Assembly (NCBI GenBank): GCA_964491435.1
Contig: CAZBGE010000001.1
Span: forward strand, 2,164-66,163
Direction of reading: 5' to 3'
From: an uncultured Smithella sp.
GTDB taxonomy: Bacteria; Desulfobacterota; Syntrophia; Syntrophales; Smithellaceae
Length of the DNA stretch: 64,000 nucleotides
Shown here: piece after piece, positions 46,107-64,000 of the stretch
How the letters are laid out: every line of letters begins with the position of its first letter
Numbering within the stretch: the first letter of the stretch is position 1
Notes under the pieces: generated by a model
The model's database searches: none
What the model was told of the DNA's origin: nothing
The model's input: the letters and a program-made list of their open reading frames with translations, nothing else
Made by a program: the position numbers and the translations under genes

Positions 46107-49100
46107 GTGACAAAGCAAAAAGTAATAGCCGCTGCAGAAAATACGTTTTGGAATGACTGGTCATTGATTCTTATTGCCGTCGGCGTTGTCTTGCTTTTGC
46201 TGCTTATTGCGGGAATTATCTTTTACATCAGAAAAAGAAAAAAAGAAAAAGAGGCGAAAAATCCTCCGGAACCCAAAAAAGCAGCGATGAAATCTTCCGC
46301 CCTGAGAAAAATATGGAAGAGTTTTCTGAAAGAAATACCGGGTGATTTGCGCCGCCGCATGATGGTTTTCGATCACTTTGTCGTTTTTGGCGGATGGGGA
46401 GTCGGTAAAACTCTGCTGATTGACAATTATACCGACTGGCAGGGTTATGCCAGAGAGTTTTACCCCAGTTACACCACAAATCCTCTGCTGCAGATTTATC
46501 TCGGTTCCAAGGTGCTGGTGCAGGAAATTCCGGCGGCTCTGGTTTCCGATACCACGGCCCCGGTAAGAAAAGCGCTGCTGAAACTCTGGACGCCCATCTT
46601 TCGGCATAAAGCGCCGACGGTTGTTGTAGTTCTAAGCGGCGCCGGTAATGGAGACGAGGAAAATTACATTGATTACCTGACAAAAGAAGCTCAGTATATT
46701 CGGGGGAAAATCAATCTTTTAAGCGGAATATGCCAAAAACCGGTCAAGGTGCGCATTGCCGTAACCCATCTTGATTTAATGGAAGGTTTTTCTGAATTTT
46801 CTGAATATCTTGTAAAAAAAAGCTTTCCCCTGAAAATGCATTTTTCGTCCAATGACGATATCGCCGAATTGTCCAAAGGACTGGAGCCGTTTGAAAAATA
46901 TCTGACCGATGCTCTGGTTACGCTTCCCGCCGATAAGTATCTGAGGACGATTTCTTTTTTACGTCAGTCGCCGAAGATTTTTGAGTATTTAAAATTCTTT
47001 GCCGCAAAACTTACCGGGCAGGATCCGCTTTCCGTGGAACCGCAAATTGTTGACGTATGTCTTACTTCGCTGGAAGAAAAACATGTCCGGTTTACGAATC
47101 CATTTTCCGCGCAAATCACCAGAGAACAGTTGGCGAAATACGATCCCTACCAATGGCATCGCCGAACAGCGATGGCGTCTGGTTTTATCGCCGTTGCCTT
47201 GCTCATGGCCTCATTTATCTATGAACTGAATCTGCTTAAAGAACGTCAACTGGCGACATCCGAGGTGGCGTCCTCTTTTTCGGAAGGATACGAAAACAAG
47301 GTGCATGAGCTTCTGCTGGATAATTATTTTAAGAAACATTACTTTCTGAAATTTACCCCCGGTTTTTTTAAGAAGAATCACCATGCTGTCACACGCGCTT
47401 TAATTGAAGCAATTCGCCGCCAGTACTTTTACCCGCGGCTGGACAGCTATGCGCTGGCGACGGAAAAAAAGGATATGATCGGATCGCTCACCAGGCAAAT
47501 GAGCGATCCCGCAAAGCGTTATGTCGAGATTTCCGAAGGCATGCGGGATAAGTACATGTATGTTATCGGGCTGATGTTCGCGACGGACAAAAATGAGCTT
47601 GGAAAACTTATTAAGAGCAATATTCAACATATTTCTGAATCTCTGGCAATTCCGGAGATGATCATTGAAGATTACGTCGCCTATAATCAATCCGAATGGC
47701 CCATTGCCTATGAAATGCCTAATGTTACCATCACCCAGCGGGGTAATTATCTGGAACAACTCGAGAGGATGATTTCTTTCCATGGGAAATTTTATTTTAT
47801 GCATATTGCTCAATTGTATGATCAGCAGCTGATCAGCGAGAGCGAACTGGACGGGCTTTTACACGAAAGCGACCATTTTCTCATGATCATCAGGCAGTAT
47901 GATATTCACAATTTTTACATCAAGCTTATGGAGTTGATTAAACGGGAAACGAATTTAATCATCAATATGGATGAACAGGGGCCCAGGCAATTCGGATGGC
48001 AAAAAGACAAAATCGAGCAGTTTCTTATTTTTATCAAGGGATCTTCGCTGGAACCGCCGCAAAAGCCTGAAAACCTGAAATTTGCAGGCTTGGCTGAAAA
48101 CATCAACATGATGCTCAACTACAACAAGCTCAAAACGGACTATAAATTCAAGTTTTCATTCGGCGCCGAAGAATTTGTTTTCAGCGCCCAGCAATGGAAT
48201 GATACTTTAAACCGAAGCAAGATATGCGTTTTCATGCGCCGGGCTATTGCTTATTACAAAACACCGAATGGGACTCTCTTTTTCCCATCTGAATATGATT
48301 TCGAAGATATTGTAATGAATCCGACCAATGACGGCGGTTTTCTTTTCGTCGGCAAAGCCAGAGTGGATAAAAGATTTACAAAGAACGCATTGGAAAGATA
48401 TGTGAAGCCACAAGTCACGGATTTACCTGTTTTGATTAAAAGTCTTCCGGTGCCCGATAAAGACAGAAATGATTTTCTGAGCTTCCTGCGCCGGGAGGTG
48501 GATTTTTACGCTCAGATGTACGCCGATTCCTATCGCAAATTTTACCTGCAGTTTGATATCCAGATTAATTCCGCTGGCGCTCTTCGTTTTGCCTTGAATC
48601 AAATGTTTGAACCTTCTTCTTCCTTTATGACTTTTCTCCAGACGATCAAGGAAAATACCCAGGTTGATACGGGCAACAACGAGTATCTGATGATCATTGC
48701 CGGGAAAATGAGGGATTTTGATTTCATCCGAAAACTGCTGGATGAGAAAAACGGTGTTTACCCTGAACTGGATAAATATAAAATACTGCTTGATCAGATG
48801 AAAACGGATCTTCAGCAGGAATCACCGTCGCCGTCAAAGAAAAATGCTGCGGAGGATCCGTTTGTGTTGACCAAAAGCGGACTGACCCCCCTGGGGAAAA
48901 TCGCTTTCGCCATTAACAGAAAAGATAATGATTCGTATCTGGCTTTGACGACTCGCTGGCTGGAAAGCGTGGGAATTTCCAGGCAATGGCGCGACATTTT
49001 TCTTGCGCCGATCTGGACCGCGTATTTTTTGGGAATGAATGATGTTGATCAGGAAATAACGAAATCATGGGCGGACATGATGGAAGAAAACATCAATCCG

Positions 49101-49817
49101 CTCAACAATAAGTTTCCTTTTAATCCACTGGCTGCGGATGAAGCCACACTGGAAGATATTAAAAACGCCACTCATCCGCAAGGGCGCTTCTGGCAGTCGT
49201 ATCAAAAGGCGATTGCGCCTTACTGTTCATTAGAGGGCGGCAAATGGAAAAGCAATCCCGGTCCGTACGGCCTTCCGAATATGCCGCCTAAAATGCTGAT
49301 GACGCTGAATAATATTTCCAGTCTCAGCAAGCTCTTTTGGGACAAGGAAGGCAATGCGCGGCCGCTGGAATACATGGTGAAATCAAACCCGTTGCCCAAA
49401 ATGATGCCGGACGAGCCGACGCCTGTTTTATCGTATGTGACCGTTGGAGCGTCGTCATTTATGTCTTTTAACCAGCAAACAAATTGGGCGCCTCTCAAAA
49501 TTGAATGGCAAAATACCTGCTCGGCGTCTGTGGGGCTAGAACTAATACCGGCGAAAGGCGCGACTAAATACAAAAGCACCATTGAAGTTCCCAGTTCCAA
49601 TTGGTGCTTCTACAAGCTTTTGAAAAAGACTGAGGAATATAAGGACATGGTGCATGCTCCCGCTTCCAGCTCCCCCAAAGGCAGTAGTTATTGGCTGAAA
49701 AATGATATCAGATGGATCATTGACCCCACGTCTGATAAAATCAAGAGTCATCCGATCGAAATTAAACTGACCTTTAAAAAGGACCCCTGGGAGGCGATAA
49801 TTCTTCAAAGATATTAA
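46107..49817 (+). CDS. tssM: T6SS membrane-complex protein TssM (IcmF-like)
   Basis: 1236 aa. N-terminal TM, a P-loop FVVFGGWGVGKTLLI, and RIAVTHLDLMEGFSEF (matching the TssM TK.DLL.GF.EFF block). A second TM lies around residue 355, followed by a large periplasmic region. GTG start 23 nt after the clpB stop. Confidence 0.85.
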   Translation: MTKQKVIAAAENTFWNDWSLILIAVGVVLLLLLIAGIIFYIRKRKKEKEAKNPPEPKKAAMKSSALRKIWKSFLKEIPGDLRRRMMVFDHFVVFGGWGVGKTLLIDNYTDWQGYAREFYPSYTTNPLLQIYLGSKVLVQEIPAALVSDTTAPVRKALLKLWTPIFRHKAPTVVVVLSGAGNGDEENYIDYLTKEAQYIRGKINLLSGICQKPVKVRIAVTHLDLMEGFSEFSEYLVKKSFPLKMHFSSNDDIAELSKGLEPFEKYLTDALVTLPADKYLRTISFLRQSPKIFEYLKFFAAKLTGQDPLSVEPQIVDVCLTSLEEKHVRFTNPFSAQITREQLAKYDPYQWHRRTAMASGFIAVALLMASFIYELNLLKERQLATSEVASSFSEGYENKVHELLLDNYFKKHYFLKFTPGFFKKNHHAVTRALIEAIRRQYFYPRLDSYALATEKKDMIGSLTRQMSDPAKRYVEISEGMRDKYMYVIGLMFATDKNELGKLIKSNIQHISESLAIPEMIIEDYVAYNQSEWPIAYEMPNVTITQRGNYLEQLERMISFHGKFYFMHIAQLYDQQLISESELDGLLHESDHFLMIIRQYDIHNFYIKLMELIKRETNLIINMDEQGPRQFGWQKDKIEQFLIFIKGSSLEPPQKPENLKFAGLAENINMMLNYNKLKTDYKFKFSFGAEEFVFSAQQWNDTLNRSKICVFMRRAIAYYKTPNGTLFFPSEYDFEDIVMNPTNDGGFLFVGKARVDKRFTKNALERYVKPQVTDLPVLIKSLPVPDKDRNDFLSFLRREVDFYAQMYADSYRKFYLQFDIQINSAGALRFALNQMFEPSSSFMTFLQTIKENTQVDTGNNEYLMIIAGKMRDFDFIRKLLDEKNGVYPELDKYKILLDQMKTDLQQESPSPSKKNAAEDPFVLTKSGLTPLGKIAFAINRKDNDSYLALTTRWLESVGISRQWRDIFLAPIWTAYFLGMNDVDQEITKSWADMMEENINPLNNKFPFNPLAADEATLEDIKNATHPQGRFWQSYQKAIAPYCSLEGGKWKSNPGPYGLPNMPPKMLMTLNNISSLSKLFWDKEGNARPLEYMVKSNPLPKMMPDEPTPVLSYVTVGASSFMSFNQQTNWAPLKIEWQNTCSASVGLELIPAKGATKYKSTIEVPSSNWCFYKLLKKTEEYKDMVHAPASSSPKGSSYWLKNDIRWIIDPTSDKIKSHPIEIKLTFKKDPWEAIILQRY

Positions 49818-63153: not shown

Positions 63154-64000
63154 ATGGATATTGAAATTTTAAAAGGGGAACTTGAAGTAAGCGAGAATCC
63201 GGGGCTGGAAACAACCGATCCGCGTTTGAGTGATATTGCCACGCTGGTGCAGGGGGGTGATTTCCAGCGGGCGGCTTTGCAGTCGGCAGACATTCTTGAT
63301 GAAAAAATCTATGACATCCGCATTATCGGTTATTATTTATACGGTCGTTTTGCGGAGGACGGTCTGGCGGCGGCGGGAGACATCTTTGCTTGTTTGACGG
63401 AAATATTAAACAAAAATGTGGCTGCATTGGGACCGGTCAGGAACAAGGAAAAGCATATTAAAAATACTCTGTCGTGGCTTTTTAAAACTGTTTCCAATAA
63501 CCTGGTTTACGAAACAGAAAAAACAACCGAAATTTACGCTAAATGGCAGGAAACGATTTCCCCTGAGCAAATTCAGGACATCCTTGAATTTTGCGGCGAG
63601 TTGCATCAAGCGATCGCGGAGCTGGCGGACGCCTCGTCCATAACGGATGCGCTGACCAAAATTCAGGAATGGCTGCAAGTGTTTCAGCGTGTTGTGTACC
63701 GGGAGCAAAGTCAGGAGGAACCTCAACTGCAGGAGTCCGTAGATGAAACAGAGGAGGCGCCGGAAAGGAAAAAGGCGCGGGAGGAAGACTCGCTGGGCGG
63801 ATTTGAAGGATCCTATCAAATGAAGTTGTTAATCCGCAAGCTCGACGCTTTTGACAGATTGATTGAGGCGGGTAAGCTTGCGCTGGCCGCCATCGTAGCG
63901 GATGATATCAACAACATTGTCGGACATTTTGACCCCAAAATTTATTTTCCCCATTTGTTTACAAAATTTTCCGTTCAGTTTGCGAAAAACATCAATCCGA
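63154..64000 (+). CDS. TssA/ImpA-like T6SS protein (3' end outside window)
   Basis: Frame 1 is open from ATG 63154 (GAGAGG RBS) to the window end, verified by manual translation (282 codons, no stop). The segment DIRIIGYYLYGRFAEDGLAAAGDIFACLTEIL weakly resembles the ImpA_N helical region. It is absent from the ORF track because it lacks a stop. Confidence 0.4.
   Translation, partial: MDIEILKGELEVSENPGLETTDPRLSDIATLVQGGDFQRAALQSADILDEKIYDIRIIGYYLYGRFAEDGLAAAGDIFACLTEILNKNVAALGPVRNKEKHIKNTLSWLFKTVSNNLVYETEKTTEIYAKWQETISPEQIQDILEFCGELHQAIAELADASSITDALTKIQEWLQVFQRVVYREQSQEEPQLQESVDETEEAPERKKAREEDSLGGFEGSYQMKLLIRKLDAFDRLIEAGKLALAAIVADDINNIVGHFDPKIYFPHLFTKFSVQFAKNINP

What the first reader, a model, noticed from the sequence alone, without database searches (positions are those of the whole stretch)
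46107..64000. Complete but architecturally non-canonical type VI secretion locus, possibly an undescribed T6SS variant
Sixteen co-directional genes with minimal spacing run from 46107 to beyond the window end. Motifs I can read directly identify TssM (P-loop GGWGVGKT plus the THLDLMEGFSEF block), a TssJ lipoprotein, TssB, TssC, TssK, TssE (gp25-like), a VgrG-like spike, TssF, TssL (DotU) and TssG. A proteobacterial-type membrane complex (TssJLM) is therefore combined with a full sheath and baseplate.

The organisation departs from described T6SS-i loci in several independent ways:
- No ClpV; a bona fide ClpB sits at the 5' end.
- No recognisable Hcp.
- A two-ORF spike.
- tssE-spike-needle-tssF-tssL-orf-tssG order, instead of a contiguous tssEFG.
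- A degenerate ANL enzyme between tssJ and tssB.
- A multi-zinc-ribbon protein coupled to tssG.
- No PAAR, Fha/PpkA/TagF or evident effector-immunity pairs within the window.

The locus also looks visibly more A/T-rich than the upstream core genes, which is consistent with horizontal acquisition. I have not quantified this.
Basis: partly seen in the sequence, partly recalled or inferred. Interest (0 to 1): 0.85.

Follow-up and report, generated by a model that had tools for sequence, protein, structure and literature searches.

The report
Environmental sister of Francisella's T6SS
This is an intact type VI secretion gene cluster from a widespread, apparently undescribed environmental lineage whose closest known relative is the unusual Francisella system, which the field has treated as a Francisella-only outlier.

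Summary
The 16-gene run is real and is a type VI secretion system (T6SS). TssB, TssC, TssK, TssE, TssF, DotU/TssL, TssG and TssM are all supported.

It is neither a one-off nor a canonical T6SS-i. The same gene order recurs in Desulfobacterota, Methylobacter, Psychromonas and a Lentisphaerales MAG. Rearranged relatives occur in Planctomycetota, Chlamydiales and Myxococcota.

Its sheath groups with Francisella IglB against 13 T6SS-i sheaths in 500/500 bootstraps. It also shares several Francisella-type parts:
- an IglE-type lipoprotein
- an IglI-family protein
- a split spike: a hub whose best fold match is PdpA, plus a small VgrG
- no ClpV

It differs from the Francisella island in keeping TssE, a canonical TssK, a Walker-A TssM and a classical PAAR. 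The PAAR lies about 3 kb beyond the window end.

The "ClpB" is not the housekeeping chaperone. It belongs to a separate ClpB-like clade that always travels with this T6SS.

The 191-aa protein in the Hcp slot matches neither Hcp nor IglC, and close relatives of it are Sec-exported. The tube therefore remains unidentified.

I found no paper describing this lineage. I rate it a new variant of a known kind.

The parts
43510..46083 (+). ClpB-like AAA+ unfoldase. Proposed dedicated sheath-recycling ATPase (the TssH role).
   Evidence: Colinear with ClpB over its full length, but 1154 bits against the 1232 cut-off. It scores 780 against 885 on the ClpV model. It ends 23 nt before tssM. Eight linked copies from other loci behave the same way. 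The T6SS-linked copies form a clade in 98/100 bootstraps, separate from 78 generic ClpBs. Only relatives with more than 55% identity are followed by tssM.
46107..49817 (+). TssM-like inner-membrane component with a Walker A NTPase domain.
   Evidence: TIGR03348 E 2e-12 at aa 870-1084. Walker A GGWGVGKT at aa 95-102. TM-like segments at about aa 19-41 and 353-375. Conserved next to the lipoprotein in about 20 loci.
49817..50335 (+). IglE-type outer-membrane lipoprotein (the TssJ role). The true start is probably Met15 at 49859.
   Evidence: Pfam IglE_N 80.8 bits against cut-off 26. NCBIfam T6SS_IglE 47.8 against 75. A signal peptide plus lipobox Cys (MMQAC) is conserved in most homologues.
50389..52110 (+). 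Degenerate ANL-superfamily (adenylation-domain-like) protein. Clade-specific accessory of unknown role.
   Evidence: Pfam AMP-binding E 1e-4, below cut-off. A profile of 16 homologues hits adenylation domains and acetyl-CoA synthetases at about E 1e-10, mainly over aa ~60-200. Present in nearly all clade loci, including the rearranged ones.
52146..52670 (+). TssB, sheath small subunit.
   Evidence: TIGR03358 151.7 bits against 97. Francisella IglA scores 74-102 bits on clade TssBs against 52-69 on T6SS-i TssBs.
52688..54199 (+). TssC, sheath large subunit.
   Evidence: TIGR03355 513 bits. Best PDB match is IglB at 425 bits, against about 355-360 for T6SS-i sheaths. The IglB-plus-clade grouping is recovered in 500/500 bootstraps.
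54255..54830 (+). p191, a conserved 191-aa beta-rich protein in the Hcp/IglC slot. Tube candidate by position only.
   Evidence: No Pfam, NCBIfam, PHROG or PDB sequence hit. AF2 model has pLDDT 92.5, with no Foldseek match to Hcp or IglC. hhalign against Hcp and IglC gives probability below 1%. It follows tssC in about 34 of the 38 clade loci that extend past tssC. The family also has Sec-exported members.
54881..54920 (+). Perfect 18-bp stem-loop between p191 and tssK. Likely an intra-operon transcript-stabilising or attenuating hairpin.
   Evidence: Found. Hairpins of unrelated sequence sit at the same place with z < -3 against shuffles in 19 of 28 sequences (the window plus 27 loci); in 22 of 28, no shuffle reached the observed stability.
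54955..56199 (+). TssK, baseplate.
   Evidence: TIGR03353 287.9 bits against 100.
56249..56626 (+). TssE (gp25-like), baseplate.
   Evidence: TIGR03357 61.1 bits against 53.2. Pfam GPW_gp25 44.7 against 27.2.
56627..58255 (+). p542, PdpA-like spike hub (gp27-like base, OB fold and the start of the beta-helix).
   Evidence: No sequence-level hit. AF2 model has pLDDT 86 and pTM 0.82. Best Foldseek match is Francisella PdpA 6u9e_A, E 5.6e-27, TM 0.69. Classical VgrGs come at about E 1e-17 to 4e-20 and eCIS spikes at 2.7e-23.
58286..58804 (+). p172, small VgrG needle.
   Evidence: NCBIfam T6SS_TssI_Fran E 1.5e-7, below cut-off. The profile hits the VgrG C-terminal beta-helix of 8gra (9e-5) and Francisella VgrG 6u9e_B over nearly its whole length (5e-4).
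58828..60462 (+). TssF, baseplate.
   Evidence: Pfam T6SS_TssF 76.9 against 25. TIGR03359 83.7 and the IglH/TssF model 58.3 are both below their cut-offs.
60434..61147 (+). DotU/TssL, inner-membrane component.
   Evidence: Pfam DotU 82.6 against 27.
61194..61544 (+). p116, small poorly conserved protein of unknown role.
   Evidence: No family hit. Homologues only in the closest loci, at 27-59% identity.
61563..62417 (+). TssG, baseplate.
   Evidence: The window copy gives PF06996 E 1.3e-4, below cut-off. All 15 homologues hit only this family, best 1.4e-8.
62414..63136 (+). Zn240, protein with four CxxC-x17-CxxC zinc ribbons. Lineage-restricted accessory, overlapping the tssG stop by 4 nt.
   Evidence: Eight CxxC motifs in four evenly spaced pairs. 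Found only in the Syntrophales, Desulfurivibrionaceae and Syntrophobacteraceae loci.
63154..64000 (+). IglI-family (TssA-like) protein, 334 aa, cut by the window end.
   Evidence: Read through on the identical JGI contig L001. NCBIfam IglI_fam 286 bits against 100. Weak TssA/ImpA_N similarity.

Best explanation
The locus encodes a contractile type VI secretion machine. It belongs to a distinct, widespread lineage that is the sister group of the Francisella T6SS-ii and is intermediate in composition between T6SS-i and T6SS-ii.

**Proposed working (inferred from homology).**
- Envelope anchor: TssM (Walker-A NTPase, two TM segments), DotU/TssL and an IglE-type lipoprotein.
- Baseplate: TssE, TssF, TssG and TssK, built around a two-protein spike.
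- Spike: the PdpA-like hub p542 carries the small VgrG needle p172. A PAAR protein encoded just past the window caps it.
- Sheath: TssB and TssC polymerise, assisted by the IglI-family (TssA-like) protein, around an inner tube.
- Tube: the best candidate is p191, on position only.
- Recycling: after contraction, the operon's own ClpB-derived AAA+ unfoldase disassembles the sheath. This is the job ClpV does in T6SS-i and housekeeping ClpB does in Francisella.

**Roles left unassigned.** The degenerate ANL-like protein is a conserved accessory with no assignable role. The four-zinc-ribbon protein is a lineage-specific accessory.

**Shown.** Homology and fold assignments, conserved synteny, the sheath phylogeny and the separate ClpB-like clade.

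**Inferred.** Assembly order, ClpB-driven sheath recycling, the tube identity, and any target or effector.
For: **Core components.** Family matches.

**Conserved gene order.** The order ClpB-TssM-IglE-ANL-TssB-TssC-p191-TssK-TssE-p542-p172-TssF-DotU-(p116)-TssG-(Zn240)-IglI recurs across Syntrophales, Desulfurivibrionaceae and Syntrophobacter. With minor variation it also recurs in Desulfobacteraceae, Desulfuromonadales, Psychromonas, Methylobacter and Lentisphaerales.

**Sister relationship to T6SS-ii.**
- The best PDB sheath match is IglB.
- The best of 579 plasmid-collection TssC matches is Francisella, at 44% against 40% or less for the rest.
- IglB is 36-44% identical to clade TssCs and 26-32% to 13 T6SS-i TssCs.
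- The split of IglB plus clade against T6SS-i is recovered in 500/500 NJ bootstraps. The clade is monophyletic without IglB in 99.4%.
- IglA shows the same preference.

**Shared Francisella-type parts.**
- IglE_N domain.
- IglI_fam at 286 bits.
- The p542 fold matches PdpA best.
- The p172 profile matches Francisella VgrG.
- TssF also hits the IglH model.

**Dedicated ClpB paralogue.**
- All nine linked copies (window plus eight other loci) score 1092-1189 bits against the ClpB cut-off of 1232. E. coli ClpB scores 1471.
- The same nine score 752-810 on the ClpV model against a cut-off of 885. A true ClpV scores 1266.
- Of the 80 best metagenomic relatives, the 3 above 55% identity are followed by tssM-iglE-ANL. 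None of the 77 at 53% or below is.
- The linked copies are monophyletic in 98/100 bootstraps.

**Downstream genes.** PAAR and the IglI-family gene were found on the same contig.

**Operon punctuation.** A hairpin after p191 is conserved across loci, which suggests tssB-tssC-p191 is a high-output unit.
Against: - No tube protein is identified by homology or fold. A confident p191 model matches neither Hcp nor IglC. Close relatives of p191 are Sec-exported lipoproteins in non-T6SS contexts.
- Several FPI-specific NCBIfam equivalog cut-offs are not reached: IglE, IglH and TssI_Fran.
- The tree is neighbour-joining. It uses 13 unsubtyped T6SS-i sheaths, a single T6SS-ii sequence, and no T6SS-iii or T6SS-iv.
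- I could not inspect a whole genome to show a second, housekeeping clpB alongside the linked copy.
- No Francisella PdpB, IglF, IglG, IglJ or FNI sequences were available for direct comparison.
- Nothing here shows expression or secretion.
Confidence: 0.75

Rival explanations
1. It is an ordinary member of an already characterised T6SS-i subclade, and its oddities are annotation gaps.
For: TssB, TssC, TssK and TssE pass the generic T6SS equivalog models, and public records name the sheath simply 'type VI secretion system contractile sheath large subunit' or 'ImpC'. A classical PAAR is present.
Against: - The sheath separates from all 13 sampled T6SS-i sheaths with 100% bootstrap and groups with IglB.
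- None of 578 non-Francisella plasmid TssCs exceeds 40% identity.
- There is no Hcp, ClpV, TssJ-family or VgrG-family hit.
- The T6SS-i loci picked up in the same scan (L043-L047) carry ClpV, and four of the five carry Hcp directly after tssC.
- Francisella-type parts are present.
Confidence: 0.07
2. It is simply a T6SS-ii, a bona fide member of the Francisella pathogenicity-island type found outside Francisella.
For: It has the sister sheath, the IglE_N domain, an IglI-family protein, a PdpA-like hub plus small VgrG, and no ClpV.
Against: - It keeps TssE, a canonical TssK (288 bits on the T6SS-i model), a Walker-A TssM and a PF05488 PAAR. I found no DUF4280 IglG-type cap.
- There is no IglC-like protein.
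- NCBIfam, which holds other FPI-specific models, gave no hit naming PdpC, PdpD, PdpE, IglF or IglG.
- FPI equivalog cut-offs are missed for IglE, IglH and VgrG.
- The clade excludes IglB in 99.4% of bootstraps.
- It has its own ClpB-like gene, and it carries an ANL-like gene that, from my own recollection of FPI content, is not reported there.
Confidence: 0.1
3. The upstream gene is the cell's ordinary housekeeping ClpB. It happens to sit next to the T6SS and is used by it as in Francisella, so it is not a dedicated component.
For: It is full length and colinear with ClpB, including the middle domain, and ClpB is its best-scoring family. Francisella uses its housekeeping ClpB for sheath disassembly (PMC5481754 abstract, seen).
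Against: - The adjacency is conserved in at least 18 loci from different orders and classes.
- Every linked copy tested scores below the ClpB equivalog cut-off.
- The linked copies form their own clade (98% bootstrap). They are at most 55.5% identical to any of 78 generic ClpBs, while generic ClpBs are typically 59.5% identical to each other.
- Linkage to tssM tracks clade membership perfectly.
Confidence: 0.08
4. p191 is not the inner tube. It is a conserved secreted cargo or accessory, and the real tube protein is encoded elsewhere in the genome.
For: - A confident model matches neither Hcp nor IglC, both of which are in the library.
- There is no profile similarity to either.
- About a third of family representatives carry signal peptides or lipoboxes. 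One of these is 75% identical to p191, and some also have Ig-like or T9SS sorting domains.
- One exported member sits far from any T6SS gene.
- At deeper divergence p191 conservation (54-58%) falls to baseplate level, while TssB and TssC stay near 80%.
Against: - It occupies the slot held by hcp in T6SS-i loci and by iglC in the FPI.
- No canonical hcp lies within about 10 kb of tssC in any of about 40 clade loci.
- A conserved hairpin groups it with tssB and tssC as one expression unit.
- IglC itself has no detectable sequence similarity to Hcp. From my own recollection, it was first reported as a new fold.
Confidence: 0.4

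Closest known systems
Francisella pathogenicity island T6SS (T6SS-ii)
   Same: - Sheath proteins are each other's closest relatives among those sampled.
- IglE-type lipoprotein instead of a TssJ-family one.
- IglI-family protein.
- Spike split into a PdpA-like hub and a small VgrG.
- The tssB-tssC-X-tssK order mirrors iglA-iglB-iglC-iglD (iglC-iglB-iglA order seen; iglD=TssK from PMC9600919).
- No ClpV; a ClpB-type ATPase instead.
   Different: - Has TssE, a canonical TssK, a Walker-A TssM and a classical PAAR.
- The ClpB-like ATPase is encoded in the operon and is a dedicated paralogue.
- Has a conserved ANL-like protein.
- No detectable IglC, PdpC, PdpD, PdpE, IglF or IglG.
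- Found in free-living anaerobes and methanotrophs rather than in an intracellular pathogen.
Canonical proteobacterial T6SS-i (for example the loci L043-L047 recovered here, or V. cholerae and P. aeruginosa H1)
   Same: - TssB, TssC, TssE, TssF, TssG, TssK, TssL and PAAR are recognisable.
- TssM has a Walker A motif.
- A tube-slot gene directly follows tssC.
   Different: - No Hcp, ClpV, TssJ-family lipoprotein, single-chain VgrG or full TssA.
- TssC is only 32-38% identical.
- tssE, tssF and tssG are interrupted by the spike genes, dotU and p116.
- By my count, about 7 of 14 core families pass curated cut-offs. This would fall short of the TXSScan quorum of 11 quoted in PMC4793230. That is an inference; TXSScan itself was not run.
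Francisella novicida island (FNI) and the W12-1067 FPI-like clusters
   Same: - As tabulated in PMC4230796, they have an IglE-like lipoprotein next to a PdpB/TssM-like protein.
- An unknown large protein precedes impB-impC, and a roughly 200-aa 'putative TssD' follows.
- They have a small DUF2345 VgrG-like protein.
- One of their DotU proteins has Desulfonatronospira DotU as its closest non-Francisella homologue.
   Different: - The FNI uses a DUF4280 PAAR-like cap. No ClpB, TssE or ANL-like gene is listed for it.
- No FNI sequence was available, so no direct comparison was made.
ClpV (TssH) of T6SS-i
   Same: A Hsp100/Clp AAA+ ATPase encoded within the T6SS operon, presumably for sheath disassembly.
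   Different: - The protein here keeps full ClpB architecture and scores higher on ClpB than on ClpV models (1154 against 780 bits).
- It clusters apart from ClpV.
- It appears to be a separate recruitment of a ClpB-like ATPase, or an early-branching one.

Membership tests
T6SS (any type) | Contractile sheath pair TssB/TssC | tested here: met
   TIGR03358 151.7 bits against 97; TIGR03355 513 against 271.
T6SS (any type) | Baseplate wedge TssE/F/G/K | tested here: met
   TssK, TssE and TssF pass curated cut-offs. TssG is supported by 15 of 15 homologues.
T6SS (any type) | Inner tube protein of the Hcp/IglC/tail-tube fold | tested here: not met
   No Hcp or IglC hit by sequence, profile or Foldseek for p191 or any other ORF. 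p191 is a candidate by position only.
T6SS (any type) | Trimeric spike (gp27/gp5-like) with a PAAR cap | tested here: met
   The p542 fold matches PdpA and VgrG. The p172 profile matches VgrG needles. PAAR PF05488 58.8 bits on the same contig.
T6SS-i | ClpV (TssH) ATPase | tested here: not met
   TIGR03345 780 bits against cut-off 885, while ClpB is the better match. A true ClpV from L043 scores 1266.
T6SS-i | TssJ-family lipoprotein, TssM and TssL membrane complex | tested here: inconclusive
   DotU/TssL passes Pfam. TssM is far below cut-off (45.9 against 388) but has the Walker A motif and the expected topology. The lipoprotein is IglE-type, with no TssJ-family hit.
T6SS-i | Sheath falls within the T6SS-i radiation (subtypes i1-i5) | tested here: not met
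   Separated from 13 diverse T6SS-i TssCs in 500/500 bootstraps and grouped with IglB. The references were not subtype-labelled.
T6SS-i | Single-chain VgrG and Hcp family members in or near the locus | tested here: not met
   No VgrG-family or Hcp-family HMM hit. The spike is split into two ORFs.
T6SS-ii (Francisella pathogenicity island type) | IglA/IglB-type sheath | tested here: inconclusive
   The clade is sister to IglB, but IglB lies outside it in 99.4% of bootstraps and identity is only 36-44%.
T6SS-ii (Francisella pathogenicity island type) | IglE lipoprotein | tested here: inconclusive
   The Pfam IglE_N domain passes (80.8 against 26). The NCBIfam IglE equivalog does not (47.8 against 75).
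T6SS-ii (Francisella pathogenicity island type) | PdpA hub plus small VgrG split spike | tested here: met
   PdpA is the best fold match for p542, E 5.6e-27, TM 0.69. The p172 profile aligns to Francisella VgrG 6u9e_B over aa 13-163. The match is structural, not at sequence-family level.
T6SS-ii (Francisella pathogenicity island type) | IglI-family protein | tested here: met
   NF041244 286 bits against 100, covering the full model length.
T6SS-ii (Francisella pathogenicity island type) | IglC tube protein | tested here: not met
   hhalign probability 0.35%, BLASTP E 3.7, and no Foldseek match although 2qwu is in the library.
T6SS-ii (Francisella pathogenicity island type) | IglG (DUF4280) cap and FPI-specific PdpC/PdpD/PdpE/IglF | tested here: not met
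   No such family hits in the Pfam or NCBIfam scans. The cap is a classical PAAR. No FPI sequences for these proteins were available for direct comparison.
T6SS-ii (Francisella pathogenicity island type) | Sheath recycling by ClpB rather than ClpV | not testable with these tools
   A ClpB-like gene is operon-linked. Its function is inferred only.
ClpB (housekeeping disaggregase, TIGR03346 equivalog) | Score above the curated equivalog cut-off | tested here: not met
   1154 against 1232 bits. Eight other linked copies score 1092-1189. E. coli ClpB scores 1471.

The most novel reading that the evidence does not exclude
The locus represents an unnamed major T6SS class. It is widespread in anaerobic and aquatic bacteria of several phyla, and the Francisella T6SS-ii would be a derived offshoot of it. 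The class would have three features without precedent:
- its own ClpB-derived sheath-recycling ATPase, distinct from ClpV
- an inner tube built from a fold family (p191) unrelated in any detectable way to Hcp, IglC or phage tail tubes, with Sec-exported paralogues
- a conserved adenylation-domain pseudoenzyme as a core accessory
Probability: 0.3. Interest if true: 0.8.

Novelty: new variant of a known kind. Interest (0 to 1): 0.62.

Why it matters
T6SS-ii is described, as recently as 2026, as found exclusively in Francisella and as a phylogenetic outlier (PMC12955703; PMC4793230). Its odd parts (IglE, IglI, PdpA, a tiny VgrG, reliance on ClpB) therefore have no comparative context.

A large environmental sister lineage that still carries TssE, a canonical TssK, a Walker-A TssM and PAAR supplies that context.
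- It gives a stepwise route from canonical T6SS to the Francisella machine.
- It gives hundreds of homologues for proteins treated as Francisella-specific in the papers read here.
- It gives a natural test of how a ClpB-type unfoldase was recruited to a contractile sheath.

It also suggests a gap in detection. Profile-based detectors tuned to T6SS-i and to Francisella probably under-count T6SSs in Desulfobacterota, Planctomycetota, Chlamydiota and Myxococcota.

The unresolved tube question is a directly testable structural problem.

Tried and rejected
- **p191 as Hcp or IglC.** All of the following were negative:
  - single-sequence and profile searches of PDB sequences, which returned only spurious nanobody hits
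  - Pfam and NCBIfam
  - Pfam on 75 family members at E up to 5
  - PHROGs
  - hhalign against a real Hcp alignment and against real IglC
  - Foldseek against PDB and BFVD
- **C-terminal extensions of p191.** I expected those on long family members to be Hcp-style toxin fusions. They were surface and secretion domains behind signal peptides.
- **p542.** Sequence and profile searches against the PDB found nothing. Only the fold search worked.
- **Full Francisella island.** The only Francisella record in the collections, NZ_CP010448.1, holds just iglC, iglB, iglA and pdpD. PdpA, PdpB, IglE, IglF, IglG, IglH, IglI and IglJ could not be compared directly.
- **Housekeeping ClpB.** Rejected.
- **Horizontal acquisition from composition.** The GC shift is small and overlaps the upstream range. 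The immediately upstream genes have ordinary metabolic and signalling domains and none gave a mobility-domain hit. I did not search for tRNAs or scan the remaining upstream ORFs.
- **Literature.** Eight searches found no description of the lineage. The only hints are that Francisella DotU proteins have deltaproteobacterial DotU as their nearest relative (PMC3326028, PMC4230796).

Full report
**1. What is in the sequence**

From 43510 to the window end there is one tightly packed + strand run. Gaps range from -29 to +112 nt. On curated models the following pass their cut-offs:
- TssB, 52146-52670
- TssC, 52688-54199
- TssK, 54955-56199
- TssE, 56249-56626
- TssF, 58828-60462 (Pfam)
- DotU/TssL, 60434-61147 (Pfam)

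TssG (61563-62417) is sub-threshold in this copy. All 15 homologues I scanned hit PF06996 and no other family.

The 1236-aa protein at 46107-49817 matches the TssM model only at its C-terminal part (E 2e-12).

The sixteenth gene (63154 onward) is cut by the window end.

**2. Extending the contig**

The same DNA occurs on JGI metagenome contigs, and the sequence is identical across the overlap I checked. Downstream of the window lie, in order:
- the rest of gene 16, a 334-aa IglI-family protein (NCBIfam NF041244, 286 bits against a cut-off of 100, with weak TssA/ImpA_N similarity)
- a 605-aa unknown
- a 129-aa protein with a weak match to DUF2345 (a Pfam family listed only as uncharacterised)
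- a classical PAAR protein (PF05488, 58.8 bits)
- a methyltransferase
- a pentapeptide-repeat protein
- a signal-peptide protein with a weak LysM-like match
- a convergent type I restriction hsdR

So 'no PAAR' and 'remaining tssA' are truncation effects.

**3. The locus is one member of a large conserved lineage**

TssC has thousands of relatives. The nearest 120 (73-100% identical) come mostly from Desulfobacterota MAGs, plus Ca. Methylospira. A scan of one genome per species returned 45 loci. The closest are Smithellaceae/Smithella MAGs (93-96%), so the window is probably from that family.

A tblastn synteny matrix shows the order ClpB-TssM-IglE-ANL-TssB-TssC-p191-TssK-TssE-p542-p172-TssF-DotU-(p116)-TssG-(Zn240)-IglI.
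- It is conserved in Syntrophales, Desulfurivibrionaceae and Syntrophobacter.
- It recurs with small variations in Desulfobacteraceae, Desulfuromonadales, Psychromonas, Methylobacter and a Lentisphaerales MAG.
- Rearranged versions (TssC 57-67% identical) occur in Planctomycetota, Chlamydiales and Myxococcota MAGs.
- Five further loci with about 40% TssC identity are ordinary T6SS-i. Four have a ClpV-type hit (full-length in three), and four have hcp directly after tssC. They served as internal controls.

**4. Its nearest known relative is the Francisella system**

- Among solved structures the best TssC match is Francisella IglB, at 425 bits against about 355-360 for T6SS-i sheaths.
- Among 579 TssC-bearing records in the plasmid collection the best is a Francisella record, at 44% against 40% or less for the rest. 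That record supplied authentic IglA, IglB and IglC sequences.
- In a 30-sequence alignment (485 columns) IglB is 36-44% identical to clade TssCs and 26-32% to 13 T6SS-i TssCs.
- The split {IglB + clade} against {T6SS-i} appears in 500/500 neighbour-joining bootstraps. The clade is monophyletic without IglB in 99.4%.
- IglA shows the same preference.

The caveats are a distance method, unlabelled T6SS-i subtypes, one T6SS-ii sequence, and no T6SS-iii or T6SS-iv.

**5. Shared Francisella-type parts**

- *Lipoprotein.* The protein at 49817-50335 carries the Pfam IglE_N domain (80.8 bits against 26). Signal peptide and lipobox are conserved in most homologues.
- *Spike hub.* The 542-aa protein has no sequence-level match anywhere. 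An AlphaFold2 model from 50 homologues (pLDDT 86, pTM 0.82) finds Francisella PdpA as its best structural match (6u9e_A, E 5.6e-27, TM 0.69). eCIS spikes and classical VgrGs follow.
- *Needle.* The 172-aa protein that follows matches, as a profile, VgrG beta-helices and the small Francisella VgrG over nearly its whole length.

TssF also hits the IglH model, and gene 16 is IglI-family.

The tssB-tssC-X-tssK order mirrors iglA-iglB-iglC-iglD. The order tssM-iglE ... vgrG ... tssF-dotU ... tssG/iglI resembles pdpB-iglE-vgrG ... iglH-dotU-iglI-iglJ. The FPI gene order here comes from my own knowledge, partly corroborated.

**6. Differences from the Francisella island**

- The clade retains TssE, a TssK that scores 288 bits on the canonical model, a Walker-A TssM and a classical PAAR.
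- Nothing resembles IglC.
- No hit named PdpC, PdpD, PdpE, IglF or DUF4280/IglG. NCBIfam does hold several other FPI-specific models.
- The IglE, IglH and Francisella-VgrG equivalog cut-offs are not reached.

I therefore do not file it as T6SS-ii. It is a sister lineage with an intermediate parts list.

**7. The ClpB-like gene is a dedicated component**

- It ends 23 nt before tssM.
- It is full length and colinear with ClpB, but scores 1154 bits against the 1232 equivalog cut-off. It scores 780 against 885 on ClpV.
- Eight further T6SS-linked copies from different orders score 1092-1189 and 752-810. E. coli ClpB scores 1471, and a true ClpV scores 1266 on its own model.
- Of the 80 best metagenomic relatives, the three above 55% identity are each followed by tssM-iglE-ANL. 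None of the 77 at 53% or below is, and 49 of those have at least 1.5 kb of downstream sequence to check.
- In a 97-sequence tree the linked copies are monophyletic in 98/100 bootstraps. They are at most 55.5% identical to any generic ClpB, whereas generic ClpBs have a median of 59.5% with each other.

Not every clade locus with upstream sequence carries the gene. Several (for example L011, L015, L021 and L025) show no ClpB hit in the 10 kb upstream of tssC.

The inference is that this protein does the sheath-recycling job of ClpV. I could not confirm a second, housekeeping clpB in any complete genome.

**8. The unresolved piece: the tube**

The 191-aa protein after tssC sits where hcp or iglC sits in relatives. 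It is present in that slot in about 34 of the 38 clade loci that extend past tssC. No canonical hcp lies within about 10 kb of tssC in any clade locus.

A strong hairpin follows it. In the window this is a perfect 18-bp stem at 54881-54920. Hairpins of unrelated sequence occupy the same spot with z < -3 against shuffles in 19 of 28 sequences tested. This suggests tssB-tssC-p191 is a high-output unit.

Against a tube role:
- Its confident model (pLDDT 92.5) matches neither Hcp nor IglC (2qwu is in the library), nor any phage tube.
- Profile comparisons with real Hcp and IglC are null.
- Its family has 830 clusters at 50% identity. It includes many Sec-exported or lipoprotein forms: 49 of the top 149, one of them 75% identical to p191. 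Some carry Ig-like or T9SS sorting domains, and one lies in a non-T6SS context.

I put p191 being the tube at about even odds.

**9. Accessories**

- The 573-aa protein is a real but degenerate ANL-superfamily member. Its profile hits adenylation domains at about E 1e-10, mainly over aa ~60-200. It is conserved across nearly the whole clade.
- Zn240 has four CxxC-x17-CxxC ribbons and overlaps the tssG stop codon. It is restricted to the nearest loci.
- p116 is small and poorly conserved.

**10. Composition and context**

The locus is 45.6% GC against 50.0% upstream, but upstream windows reach 43.9%. Upstream genes are ordinary anaerobe metabolism and signalling. This is weak evidence for recent acquisition. 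The multi-phylum distribution of the lineage argues for horizontal spread on a longer timescale.

**11. Prior knowledge**

- Recent papers state that T6SS-ii is exclusive to Francisella.
- One 2026 survey places T6SS-ii nested within the T6SS-i radiation without naming its neighbours.
- Two Francisella papers noted that the nearest non-Francisella DotU is from Desulfonatronospira, Stigmatella or Haliangium.
- NCBI's IglI_fam model evidently already covers proteins like gene 16.

I found no description of the lineage, of its ClpB-type ATPase, or of the p191 family.

**Verdict**

This is a genuine, well-conserved T6SS of an undescribed sister lineage to T6SS-ii. It is a new variant of a known kind, with one real open question: the identity of the tube.

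Noticed in passing
window 54881-54920; same position in L003, L005-L009, L011-L019, L024-L026, L028, L039: A perfect 18-bp stem-loop with no T-tract lies between p191 and tssK. Hairpins of unrelated sequence occupy the same intergenic spot in most related loci (z < -3 in 19 of 28 sequences tested). This looks like conserved intra-operon punctuation that separates the sheath/p191 genes from the baseplate genes.
   Followed up: yes
P0124, P0177, P0193, P0209, P0212, P0336-P0343, P0365; L139 10001-10639: The p191 family has a large Sec-exported or lipoprotein branch. One member is 75% identical to the window protein. Some members carry C-terminal Ig-like, Listeria-Bacteroides repeat or T9SS sorting domains. 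One stands alone on a 281-kb contig with no T6SS genes nearby. P0334 is a triple tandem repeat of the domain.
   Followed up: partly
L001 11812-17911 (about 225 nt to 6.3 kb beyond the window end): Downstream module: a 605-aa unknown, a 129-aa protein with a weak match to DUF2345 (listed only as uncharacterised), PAAR, a 370-aa methyltransferase (OvoA C-terminal-like, with a weak Trm112-like match near its N-terminus), a 255-aa pentapeptide-repeat protein (PipB/PipB2-like repeats), and a 515-aa signal-peptide protein with a weak LysM-like match. These are possible cargo, adaptor or anchoring genes. No effector-immunity pair was recognised.
   Followed up: partly
L001 18754-20723, minus strand: A type I restriction enzyme R subunit (HsdR) converges on the end of the T6SS region.
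   Followed up: no
L033 and L022 (both from Desulfobacteraceae MAG Bpl_3): One MAG carries two loci of this T6SS type. L033 goes from tssC straight to tssK with no p191 gene. L022 has p191 after tssC.
   Followed up: no
L021, L024, L034; L017, L020, L033, L041: Gene-order variants exist within the clade. In the Methylobacter-type loci the ANL-like gene sits after iglI rather than before tssB. In several Desulfobacteraceae loci the p542 hub gene is missing from its usual place before the small vgrG; in L017 and L033 it lies upstream of the clpB-like gene instead. Some p542 homologues are about 643-650 aa rather than about 540 aa.
   Followed up: no
NZ_CP010448.1 (L049, L050): The 101-kb record filed in the plasmid collection as a Francisella tularensis SCHU S4 'plasmid' carries chromosomal housekeeping genes (purL, trp operon, pepN, rne). 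It also holds only a fragment of the pathogenicity island (iglC, iglB, iglA, pdpD). It looks like a chromosomal fragment rather than a plasmid.
   Followed up: no
window 26880-42603: Upstream neighbourhood:
- 2-oxoacid:ferredoxin oxidoreductase subunits (39966-42603, minus strand)
- a GGDEF protein (38643-39767)
- a genuine AMP-binding enzyme (36517-38310, not related to the degenerate ANL in the T6SS)
- an HDOD/HD protein
- a GAF-adenylate cyclase
- a DUF2600 protein
- a 746-aa ORF (33970-36210, minus strand) with no Pfam hit
   Followed up: no
window 6001-10000 and 18001-20000: Other stretches of the window are as A/T-rich (44.5-46% GC) as the T6SS locus. Low GC is therefore not unique to the locus.
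   Followed up: no
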